A DNA stretch of 64,000 nt from NCBI GenBank assembly GCA_026683435.1, contig GCA_026683435.1_4866.1; one strand, given 5' to 3'. Numbering within the stretch: position 1 is the first letter of the stretch; every line of letters begins with the position of its first letter. The stretch comes from a phage. The notes beneath the pieces are model-generated. The model saw only the letters and a program-made list of their open reading frames with translations. It was not told the DNA's origin and made no database searches. This document shows positions 22,016 to 49,561 of the stretch, one piece after another. The position numbers and the translations under genes were made by a program.

Positions 22016-22046
22016 AGGTGTTATCCTATTATGAGATGTTGTCTCG

Positions 22047-22081
22047 GATAGATAATATCTGTCTGAGTTCTTTTTGAGATG
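22047..22081. promoter_or_regulatory. conserved intergenic element, copy A
   Basis: GATAGATAATATCTGTCTGAGTTCTTTTTGAGATG; aligns with copies at 31167, 40259, 49531. Confidence 0.5.
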
Positions 22082-31166: not shown

Positions 31167-31201
31167 TAGATAATATCTATCTCAGATTACTTTAAGAGAT
31201 G
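31167..31201. promoter_or_regulatory. conserved intergenic element, copy B
   Basis: TAGATAATATCTATCTCAGATTACTTTAAGAGATG; overlaps stop codon of upstream minus gene. Confidence 0.5.
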
Positions 31202-38857: not shown

Positions 38858-39451
38858 TTACGCATCGGCCTCAAAGAACGGCTGGTTTGGTACCACTGCG
38901 TATTCGAGCACGAACAGATGTTCTGGGGCATCTTCTGCTCGCCACAGTTTGTGGCACGTTGCCAGTTTTTCCAGGATGGTCAACCAGCTGAGCTGGCAGA
39001 AAGCACGGTCGCCGAAGAACAGTTTCTGCAGTGCAATCGACACATCCATATACGCCTGTTTGAAGTCGAGTTCTTTATCGTAACCCGCCGACTGTCGCCA
39101 CGTCAGCACGAAACCTGCTTCGGTTTCGTTAATTGCTGGACGTAAACCACAAATCCACATCAGTGCCAGATTAACGTTCCAGTCGAATTCGATACCTTCG
39201 TCTTCGTCATCACCAAACGCCGCGTTTAACGCATCGTAGAAACCGTGGTTCTCTGCGAACCATTCGCCGTACTCAACGTAGACCGGTGCTTCGACAGCTT
39301 CCCCATCGACTTCACCGATAGGACGCTCTACATAGTTCGGGTTGGTTTGAACGTGTTCCGCACCCGCGCGAATTAATTCGTAGACATCTTTGGCGGTGAT
39401 TTGTGCGGCTGTTTTAAGACCTGGATACCAGGGGCGTGTTACGAGTGTCAA
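38858..39451 (-). CDS. hypothetical protein
   Basis: 197-aa ORF, 4-nt overlap with upstream gene. Confidence 0.65.
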   Translation of the reverse strand: MTLVTRPWYPGLKTAAQITAKDVYELIRAGAEHVQTNPNYVERPIGEVDGEAVEAPVYVEYGEWFAENHGFYDALNAAFGDDEDEGIEFDWNVNLALMWICGLRPAINETEAGFVLTWRQSAGYDKELDFKQAYMDVSIALQKLFFGDRAFCQLSWLTILEKLATCHKLWRAEDAPEHLFVLEYAVVPNQPFFEADA

Positions 39452-40170
39452 AGCAATGCTCCTTTCATGATAGTGTTATTTGCCAGTAGTGTACCGGCCG
39501 CAGGTGATATTTTGGTGTACAGCGTATCCCAGATTTTCTGAAGCTCAGCGACGCGTTGGTCGCGGTCTTCCTTCGCAAAAGCAAGCTGACGTGTTTCAGC
39601 TTTCGGTGGCGTCATTTTCGCACCGTAGAATGCTGCGTCTTTTCGGTAGCTGTCCATCCAGCGTTTCCCGACCGATGATTTCTTTTTAATCATCGCAACA
39701 GCAGCGCTCTCACCGAAGCGGTAGCCTAATGCAATTTCGGCTGTGCTCGGCTTGCGTTTGAGTTGTTTTGTCAGATGATCCTCGATGTGTTTCATGTAAA
39801 CAGCAGCAAGCTGTACAGCATATTTCGGTTTATTAAGGTCTGCGTTCTTTGGGATGTTAAGTTGTTTCCCATACAGACGTATCATGGAGCGTTTAGTACC
39901 TGTCGTCATTTGGACAACACTACTAGCACTGCTCGATTTATTCTTACCCACGTTTTTATTAAAACGGGATTCGCGGTAAATGGTGGTCGCAAGCATCCCG
40001 GCATGTACACCTTGCTTTTGAGATGCAGAGACGATGAGAGGTTTAATCTCATTGAACTGGTCCTGGATAAGGACAAATTCTTTTTGATGTTTGTTACTGG
40101 TGGACTGGTAAGAAGCGTTGCTGTTGAATGTGGTCACTGCTACCAGAAGAAATAAAATGGTGCGAAACAT
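39448..40170 (-). CDS. secreted or signal-anchored lytic transglycosylase-like protein (candidate endolysin)
   Basis: N-terminal hydrophobic signal MFRTILFLLVAVTTF; motif ESRFN…SSSASSVVQMTTGT parallels the SLT motif of the giant protein. Confidence 0.65.
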   Translation of the reverse strand: MFRTILFLLVAVTTFNSNASYQSTSNKHQKEFVLIQDQFNEIKPLIVSASQKQGVHAGMLATTIYRESRFNKNVGKNKSSSASSVVQMTTGTKRSMIRLYGKQLNIPKNADLNKPKYAVQLAAVYMKHIEDHLTKQLKRKPSTAEIALGYRFGESAAVAMIKKKSSVGKRWMDSYRKDAAFYGAKMTPPKAETRQLAFAKEDRDQRVAELQKIWDTLYTKISPAAGTLLANNTIMKGALL

Positions 40171-40258
40171 GGATGTATCTCCAAACGGATTTATACTTTT
40201 CCGTTCCCAATCCGGGAAGACGGCGCGGACGGCATTGTGCTCCTTTGTAATGTGCCCT

Positions 40259-40291
40259 GATGATAATATCTATTTGAAACTTTTTGGGATG
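40259..40291. promoter_or_regulatory. conserved intergenic element, copy C
   Basis: GATGATAATATCTATTTGAAACTTTTTGGGATG; overlaps stop codon of macro-domain gene. Confidence 0.45.
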
Positions 40292-40770
40292 ATTTTCTCT
40301 GCTTCCCTCAGCAGGGTGTCTGGTAAATAGAATCGATAAGTCTGCTCCGTGTGCTGTAGTCGTTTCTGTAAGTGTATAAAGATTTCCAATCGCTCATGGT
40401 AACGTAACCAGCCGTTAGCCATCCCTAGGGGCGGTATCGCAATCCCTCCTTCTAAGTCTTCCCCTAGTCGCGCCAGCGCATCAATGCCGGACGTGACATA
40501 GTAAATCTGCGATTTATAGCGAAAATGGGTTTTAGTAGGAAGGAGTATTACCCCTTCCTCAGGATAACAATAGACCTCACCAATAACGATTTGCTCTTTA
40601 CGGCATTTCTGGCGATAGTCATTATAAAGCGATGGGAAGCGTTCTCGGCACGCCAAAGCAATGCCCCTTCCCATTGCACCAACACAGTTAACTGTAACGA
40701 CCTTGAAGCGCTCAGGCGCGTTAAACAGGTCGTGGGAGATAATAGCCTCGTCGATCAGTTCTAGTGGCAT
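40270..40770 (-). CDS. macro-domain protein (putative ADP-ribose binding/processing)
   Basis: Motifs VTVNCVGAMGRGIALACRERFP and GIAIPPLGMANG resemble the two macro-domain signatures; 166 aa. Confidence 0.65.
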   Translation of the reverse strand: MPLELIDEAIISHDLFNAPERFKVVTVNCVGAMGRGIALACRERFPSLYNDYRQKCRKEQIVIGEVYCYPEEGVILLPTKTHFRYKSQIYYVTSGIDALARLGEDLEGGIAIPPLGMANGWLRYHERLEIFIHLQKRLQHTEQTYRFYLPDTLLREAEKIIPKSFK

Positions 40771-40969
40771 CTATTGCCATACCCCATTGTGAAATAACCG
40801 GAGACTGAAGCAACGATTCCAGCTCAGTAAGAACTCTGGCTTTTGCTTCTTCGCGCAACTTACGGACTTCCGGATCGGGTTTACCTGCGCCTAAATATTG
40901 GGGTTCTGTTTGTGGGGTAGGGAAACCACAGAAAGAACTAACCATTATTCCGATGATTGTTTTTTGCAT
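40721..40969 (-). CDS. small hypothetical protein with N-terminal hydrophobic signal
   Basis: 82-aa ORF with RBS gaagga; 50-nt overlap with macro gene lowers confidence. Confidence 0.35.
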   Translation of the reverse strand: MQKTIIGIMVSSFCGFPTPQTEPQYLGAGKPDPEVRKLREEAKARVLTELESLLQSPVISQWGMAIDATRTDRRGYYLPRPV

Positions 40970-41392
40970 TTAGCTATTCCTTCTCACCCAGGTTTGTACC
41001 GCTGACTCGAAACCTTCGTGTTCGATACCGAGTCGTTTCATTGCCAACATAGTGTTGAGGCTATTCGTAATTTCTTCACGGTAGCGATGGTCGTCCATCT
41101 TACGCCAACACTTCTCCGGGTCAACACCTAAGCGTTGGAGTAGATACGCCTCACGCACCATACCAGGCCGCCAGAATTTAGGGCGGGTAATCGCGATTTC
41201 AATCATGGGTGTCATGTCCAACGTGTGCGCGAGAATACTAACCGGCGTTTCCCCAACTTTATCACGTAACGCTAAACGTAACCACCACTGAACGTTTGCT
41301 TTGGTTTCAGGTAACAGATCGTAGAATAAGGCTGTTTCTTCTTCTGATAAATGATCGTATAGTGATTTTGTTTCGCGAATAGCGGTAACCAT
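40970..41392 (-). CDS. hypothetical protein
   Basis: 140-aa ORF. Confidence 0.6.
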   Translation of the reverse strand: MVTAIRETKSLYDHLSEEETALFYDLLPETKANVQWWLRLALRDKVGETPVSILAHTLDMTPMIEIAITRPKFWRPGMVREAYLLQRLGVDPEKCWRKMDDHRYREEITNSLNTMLAMKRLGIEHEGFESAVQTWVRRNS

Positions 41393-41410
41393 TTTAATGC
41401 TCCTTTAGAT

Positions 41411-41929
41411 TTAATCAATCTCGCGTTTAGGGCTCCTGTGAAACTTCACTTCAGGATTATCCTTAAATGTTTCCCAGATAAGGGACGCACCACCAAGCTC
41501 TTTGGTTTTCGTGGTGCGCAGGTGTGAGTCGCCGAGCATAACAGCACAACGTCCTTTTGCCATATACTTTTTAATTTTTTCAACCATTTTAGCTTCACGA
41601 ATATAAAAAGAACGGCTAAAGTTTACAGCCATTCCCTTTTTATCCTTGATATCTTTAGCGTAGGTTGCGTCGCTCCAGTCATCGATCCCAATAGCAGGGA
41701 TGCCGAGTTTCTTAGCCAACTCCAGCCCCATGGGCCCAATAGAGTACATCTTCTCCTTTAATGCCTTATCTTGCGCTTTTGCAGTGTGATATTCATACGG
41801 CCCCAGTTCTTCACACAGTAAAAAATCGTATGGTTTTTTCCGATGGTTATCGATGATCGCCCATTCAACACGATTACGATCGGCCGTGGTATGAATTTCC
41901 CCATATATGTCAACACGAATGTCTGTCAT
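41411..41929 (-). CDS. hypothetical protein
   Basis: 172-aa ORF. Confidence 0.65.
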   Translation of the reverse strand: MTDIRVDIYGEIHTTADRNRVEWAIIDNHRKKPYDFLLCEELGPYEYHTAKAQDKALKEKMYSIGPMGLELAKKLGIPAIGIDDWSDATYAKDIKDKKGMAVNFSRSFYIREAKMVEKIKKYMAKGRCAVMLGDSHLRTTKTKELGGASLIWETFKDNPEVKFHRSPKREID

Positions 41930-42171
41930 TTTAATTCCTCAAAAACTATAGACGCCGGCAGCGTACCAAGCGCTGCTTTAATACACGTACTCAGCGGAGT
42001 ATCATCGAACGCAACACGACCGATAGTACCCACGTTGATGTGTTTTGGATTTACGGGTAAGAACTCCTTCGCCCGTTCGTACTCAGCCCAACAGACATCG
42101 GTGTTTAAAGCTGAAAACCCAGGACGGTGAAACATAAATAGCACCCCTCGCGTAAAAAATACCCCACTCAT
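41926..42171 (-). CDS. hypothetical protein
   Basis: 81-aa ORF, 4-nt overlap with downstream gene. Confidence 0.45.
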   Translation of the reverse strand: MSGVFFTRGVLFMFHRPGFSALNTDVCWAEYERAKEFLPVNPKHINVGTIGRVAFDDTPLSTCIKAALGTLPASIVFEELK

Positions 42172-42206
42172 AGTGAGGCATAATCGTAAGGAGTGCTAAA
42201 ACAGGA

Positions 42207-42722
42207 CTATGCTACCGCAGTCCTTAAAGGATCATCTGCTTCCGCAGGAACCTGCTTCGTAAATTCAAGCCATTGTCCGTCTGTAGAGACGGTCTTGTCA
42301 AAACCGCGAGCGGTAAAGAACGCAATACCAGCTTCCTGGCAAGCGTATATTCCCCCATGCGCACTGGTGAACTTTTCATTCACATCAAGCGCATCAAAAA
42401 TCTGCGTCATCGTTTTGCGACGGCGTGCCATTTCGGACACGAACATCGTACGAATCTTCAGAACCCCAGCGATTACGCGATAGAGACAGTAACCAACAGG
42501 GGTACCCCCTTCCAGAGCAACACAAGCACGGTTCCCCGCCAACAGTTTCTCCAGAGTGAGGTTCGGAATCTCACCTTTTTCGATATGGAGTATGGTACGT
42601 TGGTGGTTCAGAAATTTATAATGCAGCCCCAACAGCTGTTTATTTTGTGCTTCCGTTAAATCTGAAGATGAGGAAAGAATGACAATTTCGGCCATGAGCT
42701 GAATTCCTAAGTGAGCTTTCAC
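42207..42722 (-). CDS. GNAT-like acetyltransferase (tentative)
   Basis: 171-aa ORF; GTG start at 42722 or ATG at 42695; C-terminal YACQEAGIAFFTARGF resembles a GNAT motif. Confidence 0.55.
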   Translation of the reverse strand: MKAHLGIQLMAEIVILSSSSDLTEAQNKQLLGLHYKFLNHQRTILHIEKGEIPNLTLEKLLAGNRACVALEGGTPVGYCLYRVIAGVLKIRTMFVSEMARRRKTMTQIFDALDVNEKFTSAHGGIYACQEAGIAFFTARGFDKTVSTDGQWLEFTKQVPAEADDPLRTAVA

Positions 42723-42763
42723 CTGCGATGAAAGCGAGTAACGAAGAATTGCGTTTGTGTTTT

Positions 42764-42787
42764 CTTAAGTTTACCGGTAAACTTAAG
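42764..42787. promoter_or_regulatory. perfect 24-bp palindrome (candidate operator)
   Basis: CTTAAGTTTACCGGTAAACTTAAG, about 40 nt upstream of the GNAT-like gene. Confidence 0.6.
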
Positions 42788-42841
42788 CGGTGTATACCGC
42801 TGCAGGTAAAGACCAGTTCTCTATCGGAACCGTGTCTTTGA

Positions 42842-43120
42842 TCAACAACGTCGTTGAAAACGCTGCGATGCTGAGGTAACCTTCCGTCGCCACATTCGCT
42901 CATGGCGCTTCTGATTACCACGCCAGTCTTCCCCGACTGTACGTGAAACTGCAAAATCATCCGGCCCGCAGACTTCCGCGATGTCTGCTAGAAGGTTCTT
43001 TGAAGACCCTATAGCCATCCCCGCGCTCGAAAGAACGATACGCCGGGTTGGCACGGCCGCCCCTGAACCCACGACCACGGGATCAGAGACTGTTTCACTG
43101 TTACATGATACTTCTCCCAC
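42842..43120 (-). CDS. hypothetical Gly/Ser-rich protein
   Basis: 92-aa ORF with GTG start and RBS aggaggg. Confidence 0.45.
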   Translation of the reverse strand: MGEVSCNSETVSDPVVVGSGAAVPTRRIVLSSAGMAIGSSKNLLADIAEVCGPDDFAVSRTVGEDWRGNQKRHERMWRRKVTSASQRFQRRC

Positions 43121-47709: not shown

Positions 47710-47738
47710 GTTATAACATCTGTCTGAAAACTTTTCGG
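47710..47738. promoter_or_regulatory. partial copy of conserved element (copy E)
   Basis: GTTATAACATCTGTCTGAAAACTTTTCGG; shares ATCTGTCTGA with copy A. Confidence 0.3.
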
Positions 47739-49530: not shown

Positions 49531-49561
49531 AGGTAATATATATCTGAGATATTTTACAATG
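49531..49561. promoter_or_regulatory. conserved intergenic element, copy D
   Basis: AGGTAATATATATCTGAGATATTTTACAATG; begins at stop codon of upstream minus gene. Confidence 0.45.

What the first reader, a model, noticed from the sequence alone, without database searches (positions are those of the whole stretch)
40270..40770. Phage-encoded macro-domain protein
The motifs VTVNCVGAMGRGIALACRERFP and GIAIPPLGMANG correspond to the two signature segments of macro domains (ADP-ribose binding or hydrolysis). A phage macro domain could reverse host ADP-ribosylation-based defence or degrade ADP-ribose-derived signals. Its 3' end carries copy C of the conserved element.
Basis: partly seen in the sequence, partly recalled or inferred. 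Interest (0 to 1): 0.5.

Follow-up and report, generated by a model that had tools for sequence, protein, structure and literature searches.

The report
Jumbo-phage DarG-like macrodomain (AdfM orthologue)
This is a real macro-domain gene of an SPN3US-like jumbo phage, and it is the orthologue of AdfM, a recently characterised phage enzyme that strips ADP-ribose off DNA to defeat the bacterial DarTG2 defence, so the finding is correct but already known.

Summary
The ORF at 40270-40770 (minus strand, 166 aa) exists and contains both quoted motifs. It is a macrodomain of the DarG/TARG1 type. PADLOC matches DarG at 4e-32 and NCBIfam matches antitoxin DarG at 1e-30, over the macro half of the profile only. 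The best PDB sequence and fold matches are the T. aquaticus and M. tuberculosis DarG macrodomains (AF2 model pLDDT 93.7). The catalytic Lys (K80) and Asn (N28) are invariant in 47 homologues.

The window is 98-99% identical to SPN3US-like jumbo phages. There the gene (SPN3US_0196) is already annotated "macro domain-containing protein". It is 69% identical to, and syntenic with, Erwinia phage Asesino gp217, and 36% identical to PhiKZ gp104. Both are AdfM ("anti-DarT factor macro"; Morgan et al., Cell Rep 2026). PhiKZ AdfM is imported into the phage nucleus, removes DarT2-made thymidine-ADP-ribose from DNA and protects against DarTG2.

Activity of this particular orthologue is inferred, not shown.

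The "conserved element" at the gene's 3' end is also real: GATAATATCTRTYTGA has 6 matches against 0.05 expected. It overlaps the stop codon and looks like a promoter or leader for the downstream transglycosylase gene.

The finding is ordinary and already described, so interest is low.

The parts
40270..40770 (-). adfM-like gene: a 166-aa stand-alone DarG2-type macrodomain (SPN3US_0196 / ACQ60_gp070 orthologue). Predicted active-site residues are N28 and K80. The ADP-ribose loops are 26-TVNCVGAMGRG-36 and 113-PPLGMANG-120.
   Evidence: ORF. DarG profile hits. PDB DarG matches. AF2 model with pLDDT 93.7. Foldseek top hits 5m31, 5m3e and 5m3i. Invariant N28, T79, K80, G116 and G120. Alignment to Asesino gp217, PhiKZ gp104 and DarG. 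RefSeq annotation.
40240..40288 (-). On the minus strand it reads CCCAAAAAGTTTCAAATAGATATTATCATCAGGGCACATTACAAAGGAG. The 16-nt core is at 40262-40277 and overlaps the last two codons and the TAG stop of the macro gene. It is a candidate phage promoter or leader for the downstream transglycosylase gene (39448-40170, minus strand). It is not part of the enzyme.
   Evidence: The 16-mer has 6 matches against 0.05 expected. All copies sit in gaps upstream of minus-strand gene starts. The block is conserved at the same place in Asesino, between gp217 and gp218.
39448..40170 (-). Downstream neighbour: an SLT-domain lytic transglycosylase, annotated 'putative endolysin' in SPN3US. Context only. It is the conserved syntenic partner of the macro gene in both SPN3US and Asesino.
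   Evidence: Pfam SLT at 1.4e-6. PHROG 4067 transglycosylase at 7e-58. Synteny.
40721..40969 (-). Upstream 82-aa ORF that overlaps the start of the macro gene by 50 nt. Context only. It is probably a real small gene of unknown function.
   Evidence: ORF. Annotated as hypothetical in SPN3US. No Pfam or PHROG hit. tblastn gives 42% identity, E = 6e-13, to an unannotated frame in Asesino that likewise overlaps the gp217 start.

Best explanation
The gene encodes an orphan, DarG2-type macrodomain. It is the orthologue in SPN3US-like (Seoulvirus) jumbo phages of AdfM, 'anti-DarT factor macro'.

Proposed mechanism. During infection the host DarT2 toxin of a DarTG2 system transfers ADP-ribose from NAD+ onto thymidines in single-stranded phage DNA (TNTC-type motifs), which blocks replication and packaging. 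The phage macrodomain binds the ADP-ribose through its two glycine-rich loops (residues 26-36 and 113-120). It uses the TARG1/DarG-type catalytic lysine (K80), helped by N28, to cleave the thymidine-ribose bond and restore unmodified DNA. It lacks the C-terminal DarT-binding domain of bacterial DarG, so it acts only as an eraser and not as a stoichiometric toxin inhibitor. By analogy with its Asesino and PhiKZ orthologues, it is probably imported into the phage nucleus, where the phage DNA resides.

Shown here: fold, subfamily, conserved catalytic residues, orphan architecture, orthology and synteny.

Inferred: enzymatic activity on T-ADPr DNA, nuclear import and anti-DarTG2 protection in this phage.
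For: Subfamily assignment:
- DarG is the only PADLOC hit (4e-32) and the only NCBIfam hit (1e-30). The NCBIfam match covers profile positions 7-150 of 338, which is the macro half.
- The best PDB sequence matches are the DarG macrodomains 5m3i and 5m31 (2e-20 and 8e-19). Poa1p-type phosphatases score only 0.05.
- The AF2 model has pLDDT 93.7 and pTM 0.90. Its top Foldseek hits are T. aquaticus DarG (E = 2.7e-13, TM 0.84), M. tuberculosis DarG and Thermosipho DarTG, followed by TARG1.

Catalytic residues:
- N28 and K80 align with TaqDarG N22 and K80 and with PhiKZ AdfM N23 and K78.
- Both are invariant in 47 homologues.
- K80A inactivates TaqDarG, and N22A is the next most damaging mutation (PMC5179494).
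- The aromatic residue at TaqDarG W83 is kept as F83.

Orthology and experimental background:
- 68.7% identity over 100% of the length to Asesino gp217 (YP_009290835.1), with the same gene order: SMC, acetyltransferase, macro, transglycosylase.
- 36% identity, E = 2e-25, to PhiKZ gp104.
- PMC13309987 shows that PhiKZ gp104/AdfM removes T-ADPr from DNA, rescues DarT2 toxicity and is required for plating on DarTG2 hosts. It also shows that the Asesino, PhiKZ and PhiPA3 AdfM proteins localise to the phage nucleus.

Context:
- The window is 98-99% identical to SPN3US-like phages, for which a chimallin homologue is reported (PMC9365700).
- No DarT or other ADP-ribosyltransferase was found among the eight or nine nearest ORFs scanned.
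Against: - There are no experimental data for this orthologue or for any Salmonella or E. coli chimallivirus AdfM.
- Several ADPr-contacting positions of TaqDarG differ: G119 to A118, Q34 to A40, K29 to R35 and N8 to D14. PhiKZ AdfM, which is active, also has Ala at the G119 position and lacks Q34 and K29.
- The generic Pfam Macro score is just below the gathering threshold.
- The NCBIfam DarG score (107 bits) is far below the equivalog cut-off (250) because half of DarG is missing.
- The SPN3US/Asesino clade is about as far from PhiKZ AdfM (34-36% identity) as from bacterial DarG (37-38%). Functional equivalence with PhiKZ AdfM therefore rests on conserved residues, not on close identity.
- A PicA/Imp1 homologue was not detected in SPN3US-like records by single-sequence tblastn, so the import step is unverified for this phage.
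Confidence: 0.8

Rival explanations
1. It is a macrodomain eraser with a different or broader substrate. It could remove ADP-ribose from proteins or RNA modified by other host ADP-ribosyltransferase defences or by the phage's own transferases, in the way TARG1 or MacroD enzymes act. Anti-DarT2 action would then be absent or secondary.
For: TARG1, a protein Glu-ADPr hydrolase, is the next-best structural relative after DarG and shares the catalytic lysine. Macro domains occur in 56% of jumbo phages and are linked to many NAD+/ADPr conflicts (PMC9503650). One record annotates the orthologue as 'protein-ADP-ribosylation protein'.
Against: All specific profile and structure hits rank DarG above TARG1 by 5-6 orders of magnitude. 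According to PMC13309987, DarG2 macrodomains exclusively counteract DNA ADP-ribosylation. The orthologues are targeted to the DNA-containing phage nucleus. No ADP-ribosyltransferase gene was found among the nearest ORFs scanned.
Confidence: 0.12
2. It is an ADP-ribose-1''-phosphate phosphatase or O-acetyl-ADP-ribose deacetylase, that is, small-molecule metabolism. This is what the database labels 'Appr-1-p processing protein' and 'phosphatase' imply. Alternatively it degrades ADP-ribose-derived immune signals.
For: PHROG 335 is labelled 'phosphatase'. Erwinia phage orthologues are annotated 'putative Appr-1-p processing protein'. There are weak phmmer hits to yeast Poa1p (E about 0.05).
Against: These labels are generic macro-domain names carried over by annotation pipelines. 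Poa1p matches are 18 orders of magnitude weaker than DarG matches and cover only residues 21-59. The invariant catalytic lysine in the PTK motif (K80) is the TARG1/DarG signature. None of the searches run here linked the protein to signal-degrading enzymes.
Confidence: 0.05
3. It is an inactive ADP-ribose reader or a decaying gene with no enzymatic role.
For: No experimental data exist for this orthologue. Some ADPr-contacting residues differ from TaqDarG.
Against: The full-length ORF is conserved at 97.6-99.4% identity in 23 SPN3US-like phage records, and at 44-81% across Erwinia, Cronobacter and Salmonella jumbo phages. All key residues are invariant. The model is a confident, complete macro fold.
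Confidence: 0.03

Closest known systems
AdfM (anti-DarT factor macro) of chimalliviruses: PhiKZ gp104, PhiPA3 gp108, Goslar gp83, Asesino gp217 (Morgan et al., Cell Rep 2026, PMC13309987)
   Same: Both are stand-alone DarG2-like macrodomains of about 160 aa encoded by a nucleus-forming jumbo phage. The active-site Asn and Lys are conserved. This protein is 68.7% identical to and syntenic with Asesino gp217, and 36% identical to PhiKZ gp104.
   Different: This orthologue, from a Salmonella/E. coli SPN3US-like phage, has not itself been tested. It has a longer C-terminal helix than PhiKZ gp104 and lacks the PhiKZ insertion before the PPLG loop. Its import factor was not detectable by simple tblastn.
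Bacterial DarG (DarG2) antitoxin of DarTG2 toxin-antitoxin systems (T. aquaticus, M. tuberculosis, EPEC; PDB 5M31, 5M3E, 5M3I, 7OMU)
   Same: It is the best sequence and structure match. The macro fold, ADP-ribose loops and catalytic K80 and N22 equivalents are the same.
   Different: This protein has no C-terminal DarT-binding domain (166 aa against about 340; NCBIfam profile covered only at 7-150 of 338; 107 bits against a cut-off of 250). There is no adjacent darT gene. It is encoded by a phage, so it is an orphan antitoxin-like eraser and not a toxin-antitoxin component.
Human TARG1 (C6orf130; PDB 4J5S)
   Same: It belongs to the same macrodomain subclass with a catalytic lysine. It is the second-best fold match (TM about 0.76-0.80).
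   Different: Identity is only 16%. TARG1 acts mainly on Glu-linked protein ADP-ribose and uses a second catalytic Asp (D125).
Other phage anti-DarT factors: AdfA (RB69), AdfB (ICP1 gp145), AdfN (T4 NADAR)
   Same: They have the same strategic role, phage counter-defence against DarTG.
   Different: AdfA and AdfB are small non-enzymatic DarT binders. AdfN is a NADAR enzyme that reverses guanine ADP-ribosylation by DarT1. None of them is a macrodomain, and none is homologous to this protein.

Membership tests
Macro domain superfamily (Pfam PF01661) | Profile match and the alpha/beta/alpha macro fold with two ADP-ribose-binding loops | tested here: met
   Pfam Macro gives E = 2e-4 and 21.6 bits, which is 0.4 bits under the gathering cut-off. 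The AF2 model (pLDDT 93.7) matches more than 170 macrodomain chains at E <= 1e-3. Specific DarG profiles match at 1e-30 to 4e-32.
DarG2/TARG1-type macrodomain | Catalytic lysine in the PTK(x)H(W/F) motif (TaqDarG K80) and the Asn of the TVN motif (N22) | tested here: met
   K80 and N28 align with TaqDarG K80 and N22. Both are invariant in 47 homologues. Their roles are documented in PMC5179494.
Bacterial DarG antitoxin (NCBIfam NF048014 equivalog) | Two-domain protein (macro plus C-terminal DarT-binding domain) that scores above the equivalog cut-off and is encoded next to darT | tested here: not met
   The score is 107 bits against a cut-off of 250, and only profile positions 7-150 of 338 are covered. 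The protein is 166 aa long. No DarT-like neighbour was found. It is therefore not a DarG antitoxin proper, only its macro module.
AdfM (anti-DarT factor macro) | Stand-alone DarG2-like macrodomain homologous to PhiKZ gp104 and Asesino gp217 | tested here: met
   BLASTP against PhiKZ gp104 gives 36% identity, E = 2e-25. tblastn against Asesino gp217 gives 68.7% identity over 100% of the length, in conserved synteny.
AdfM (anti-DarT factor macro) | Encoded by a nucleus-forming (chimallin-encoding) jumbo phage | tested here: met
   The 4-kb stretch around the gene (39000-43000) is 98-99% identical to SPN3US, JN03 and EC001, all genus Seoulvirus. A diverged chimallin homologue and a square shell lattice are reported for SPN3US (PMC9365700). 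Chimallin itself was not searched for in this window.
AdfM (anti-DarT factor macro) | Import into the phage nucleus (PicA/Imp1-dependent in PhiKZ) | not testable with these tools
   This was shown for the Asesino, PhiKZ and PhiPA3 proteins. Here it is only inferred from 69% identity to the Asesino protein. tblastn with PhiKZ PicA did not find SPN3US-like phages, although picA is described as a core gene of all ChmA-encoding phages.
AdfM (anti-DarT factor macro) | Hydrolysis of DarT2-made thymidine-ADP-ribose on DNA, and protection of the phage from DarTG2 | not testable with these tools
   This has been demonstrated only for PhiKZ (biochemistry and genetics) and PhiPA3 (genetics).

The most novel reading that the evidence does not exclude
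The SPN3US/Asesino-type macrodomain is as distant from PhiKZ AdfM (34-36% identity) as from bacterial DarG (37-38%). It might therefore be an independent capture of a DarG macro module with a shifted substrate range. For example, it could erase ADP-ribose placed on DNA or RNA by enterobacterial transferases other than DarT2.

Separately, the overlap of its stop codon with a repeated palindromic promoter-like element might couple its expression to that of the downstream lytic transglycosylase gene.
Probability: 0.07. Interest if true: 0.45.

Novelty: already known. Interest (0 to 1): 0.15.

Why it matters
The result shows that the anti-DarTG2 eraser AdfM, described in Pseudomonas and Erwinia nucleus-forming phages, is also conserved in the Salmonella and E. 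coli SPN3US group. It sits there at the same genomic position and keeps an intact active site. This matters modestly for predicting the host range of therapeutic SPN3US-like phages on DarTG2-carrying enterobacteria. It adds no new biology beyond the published family.

Tried and rejected
- Generic Pfam annotation alone gave a marginal hit (21.6 against 22 bits). It would have been inconclusive without the DarG-specific profiles.
- The database labels 'phosphatase' and 'Appr-1-p processing' were considered and rejected as generic. Poa1p-type matches are negligible.
- I looked for a toxin or transferase partner among the neighbours with Pfam and PHROGs. Only a transglycosylase, a GNAT acetyltransferase, an SMC-like ATPase and unknowns were found.
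- I tried to verify the nuclear-import route by tblastn with PhiKZ PicA/gp69. SPN3US-like phages were not hit, so this is inconclusive, probably because of divergence.
- I looked for literature on SPN3US gp196. There is nothing specific.
- The supplement of the AdfM paper, which would list which chimalliviruses carry AdfM, is not held.
- A sigma-70 promoter and intrinsic terminator scan around the gene found nothing above the shuffled expectation.
- Odd truncated 'homologues' from SPFM phage records turned out to be block-scrambled annotation artefacts, not real variants.

Full report
**Observation.** The window has a single ORF at exactly 40270..40770 on the minus strand (ATG start, 166 aa). 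It contains both quoted peptides: VTVNCVGAMGRGIALACRERFP (residues 25-46) and GIAIPPLGMANG (residues 109-120). The coordinates and the motifs are therefore correct.

**Origin of the window.** A 4-kb stretch around the gene is 99.0% identical to Salmonella phage JN03, 98.9% to Escherichia phage vB_EcoM_EC001 and 98.0% to Salmonella phage SPN3US (genus Seoulvirus, about 240 kb).
- The gene corresponds to SPN3US_0196 (GenBank, 'hypothetical protein') and to ACQ60_gp070 / YP_009153490.1 (RefSeq, 'macro domain-containing protein').
- Other records call it 'phosphatase', 'protein-ADP-ribosylation protein' or 'putative Appr-1-p processing protein'.
- The macro-domain nature of the gene is thus already in public annotation.

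**What kind of macrodomain.**
- The generic Pfam Macro model is only marginal (E = 2e-4, 21.6 bits against a gathering score of 22).
- Subfamily-specific evidence is strong and consistent. The only PADLOC hit is DarG (4e-32). The only NCBIfam hit is the DarG antitoxin equivalog (1e-30).
- phmmer against PDB sequences ranks the DarG macrodomains of M. tuberculosis (5m3i, 2e-20) and T. aquaticus (5m31, 8e-19) first, then Thermosipho DarTG (7omu). Poa1p-type Appr-1''-p phosphatases reach only E about 0.05 over 39 residues.
- An AlphaFold2 model built on 47 homologues is confident (pLDDT 93.7, pTM 0.90). Its best Foldseek matches in the PDB are TaqDarG (E = 2.7e-13, TM 0.84, rmsd 2.0 A), TaqDarG with ADPr, MtbDarG and Thermosipho DarTG. 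Human TARG1 and the alphavirus nsP3 macrodomains follow.

**Active site.** In TaqDarG, K80A abolishes de-ADP-ribosylation of DNA and N22A is the next most damaging mutation. K80 is the equivalent of the catalytic lysine of TARG1 (PMC5179494).
- In the alignment with TaqDarG, MtbDarG, PhiKZ gp104 and Asesino gp217, N28 of this protein aligns with Taq N22 and PhiKZ N23.
- K80 aligns with Taq K80 and PhiKZ K78, T79 with T79, and F83 with W83 (aromatic retained).
- The loop 113-PPLGMANG-120 aligns with the Taq G117-G121 loop.
- T26, N28, G31, M33, G34, G36, T79, K80, G116 and G120 are invariant in all 47 homologues.
- The differences from TaqDarG are G119 to A118, Q34 to A40 and K29 to R35. The biochemically active PhiKZ protein also has Ala at the G119 position and lacks Q34 and K29.

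**Architecture.** The NCBIfam DarG profile is matched only over positions 7-150 of 338, and the score (107 bits) is well under the equivalog cut-off of 250.
- The protein is therefore the macro module alone, without the C-terminal DarT-binding domain of bacterial DarG.
- No DarT or other ADP-ribosyltransferase was found among the neighbouring ORFs.
- Those neighbours are an SLT transglycosylase, a GNAT acetyltransferase, an SMC-like ATPase and proteins of unknown function.
- It is not a DarG antitoxin in the strict sense but an orphan, antitoxin-like eraser.

**Link to a characterised family.** Morgan et al. (Cell Rep 2026, PMC13309987) describe AdfM, 'anti-DarT factor macro', a DarG2-like macrodomain found in about half of chimalliviruses.
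- PhiKZ gp104 removes ADP-ribose from a DarT2-modified TNTC oligonucleotide, and the N23A mutant is impaired.
- It rescues DarT2 toxicity in E. coli.
- It is needed for PhiKZ and PhiPA3 to plate on P. aeruginosa carrying DarTG2. Without it, phage DNA becomes ADP-ribosylated and replication and packaging fail.
- GFP fusions of AdfM from PhiKZ, PhiPA3 and Erwinia phage Asesino (gp217, YP_009290835.1) localise to the phage nucleus. Import of gp104 depends on PicA/Imp1 (PMC11087766 and bioRxiv 10.1101/2024.03.27.586873).

The window protein relates to these as follows.
- It is 68.7% identical over its full length to Asesino gp217.
- It sits in the same gene order: SMC-like, small ORFs, acetyltransferase, unknowns, macro, transglycosylase.
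- It is 36% identical (E = 2e-25) to PhiKZ gp104.
- SPN3US is reported to have a diverged chimallin homologue and a shell-like square lattice (PMC9365700).
- The protein therefore meets every computationally testable criterion for AdfM.

**Mechanism.**
- Shown here: a DarG2-type macro fold, conserved catalytic Lys and Asn and ADPr loops, orphan architecture, and orthology and synteny with experimentally studied AdfM proteins.
- Inferred: host DarT2 ADP-ribosylates thymidines in single-stranded phage DNA. The phage macrodomain, probably concentrated in the phage nucleus, binds the ADP-ribose and uses K80 to cleave the thymidine-ribose bond, restoring replicable and packageable DNA.
- Relevance to the hosts: enteric hosts do carry DarTG systems, for example EPEC DarTG (PMC7003065, listed).
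- I put about 0.8 on this explanation.

**Rivals.**
- A broader or different eraser specificity (protein or RNA ADP-ribose, TARG1-like) is possible but not favoured. DarG outranks TARG1 by several orders of magnitude, and the orthologues are sent to the DNA compartment.
- The 'Appr-1-p phosphatase' and signal-degrading readings rest on generic labels only.
- An inactive reader is unlikely given strict conservation of the catalytic residues. The full-length ORF is also conserved at 97.6-99.4% in 23 SPN3US-like records and at 44-81% across Erwinia, Cronobacter and Salmonella jumbo phages.

**Caveats.**
- No experiment exists for this orthologue. A literature search for SPN3US gp196 found nothing relevant.
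- The SPN3US/Asesino clade is about as far from PhiKZ AdfM (34-36%) as from bacterial DarG (37-38%).
- A single-sequence tblastn with PhiKZ PicA finds 144 phage records but not the SPN3US-like ones. The import machinery is thus either highly diverged or different here, although the literature calls picA a core gene of all ChmA-encoding phages.
- The supplement listing all AdfM-carrying chimalliviruses was not available. I cannot say whether SPN3US is named there.

**The element at the 3' end.**
- GATAATATCTRTYTGA occurs at 22051, 31169 and 40262. Two-mismatch copies are at 47712 and 49532, and there is a minus-strand copy at 22044 that forms a 23-nt palindrome. That is 6 matches against 0.05 expected.
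- The copy at 40262-40277 overlaps the last two codons and the TAG stop of the macro gene.
- Every copy lies in an intergenic gap 36-91 nt upstream of a minus-strand gene start.
- Read on the minus strand, the consensus is AAAAG-N3-4-TCARAYAGATATTATC, followed in two cases by CAGGGMACRTWAC..AAGGAG.
- The block is conserved at the same place in Asesino, between gp217 and the transglycosylase gene gp218.
- It is most simply an AT-rich phage promoter or leader for the downstream transglycosylase gene, analogous to the AT-rich early promoters described for phiKZ (PMC10914365). This is inference. No transcription start data for SPN3US were found.
- It has no bearing on the enzyme's function.

**Verdict.** The gene is already annotated as a macro-domain protein and belongs to a family characterised in 2026. 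It is not novel, and interest is low.

Noticed in passing
window 22044-22066, 31169-31184, 40262-40277, 47712-47727, 49532-49547: A repeated 16-nt element, GATAATATCTRTYTGA, whose core TAGATA-A-TATCTA is an inverted repeat. It has 6 matches against 0.05 expected. Every copy is in an intergenic gap 36-91 nt upstream of a minus-strand gene start. At 22044-22066 it forms a 23-nt palindrome between divergent genes. It is a candidate phage promoter or operator.
   Followed up: partly
window 40171-40269 (minus strand); L003 4502-4603: The 99-nt leader between the macro stop and the transglycosylase ATG is conserved with Erwinia phage Asesino (GGGCACRTWACAAAGGAG, GTCCGCGCCGT, GGAAAAGTA). In the window, AAGGAG-N5-ATG opens a 14-codon mini-ORF (40235..40191) that is not conserved in Asesino. 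The leader may be a structured 5' UTR.
   Followed up: no
window 40721-40969 (minus strand); L003 3811-4047: An 82-aa ORF overlaps the macro gene start by 50 nt and has no Pfam or PHROG family. A 42%-identical frame (E = 6e-13) exists in Asesino. It is unannotated there and also overlaps the gp217 start, so it is probably a real, conserved small gene.
   Followed up: partly
window 40128-40250 (plus strand): A 40-aa ORF, annotated in SPN3US as SPN3US_0197 / ACQ60_gp069, lies antisense across the transglycosylase start and its leader, on the opposite strand to all its neighbours. It is likely a spurious gene call.
   Followed up: no
database proteins P0037, P0043, P0050 (Salmonella phages SPFM1, SPFM6, SPFM14): These 'homologues' are the macro protein cut into blocks of about 20 aa and joined in reverse order. 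This is an annotation or translation artefact in the SPFM records, not a biological variant. tblastn shows the intact gene in other SPFM genomes of the same set.
   Followed up: yes
phage collection: DarG-like orphan macro genes (30-38% identity) also occur in phages not known to form a nucleus: E. coli phages of about 58-82 kb (vB_EcoP type), the 145-kb Vibrio phage VAP7 and Streptomyces phages. PhiKZ PicA/gp69 tblastn does not detect SPN3US-like phages, although their AdfM orthologue in Asesino is nuclear.
   Followed up: no
literature: Two papers use 'SPN3US gp244' for different things. PMC9365700 uses it for a diverged chimallin homologue, and PMC5312081 for a virion RNAP beta'-C-terminal fragment. 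One of the gene numbers must be wrong or from another numbering scheme.
   Followed up: no
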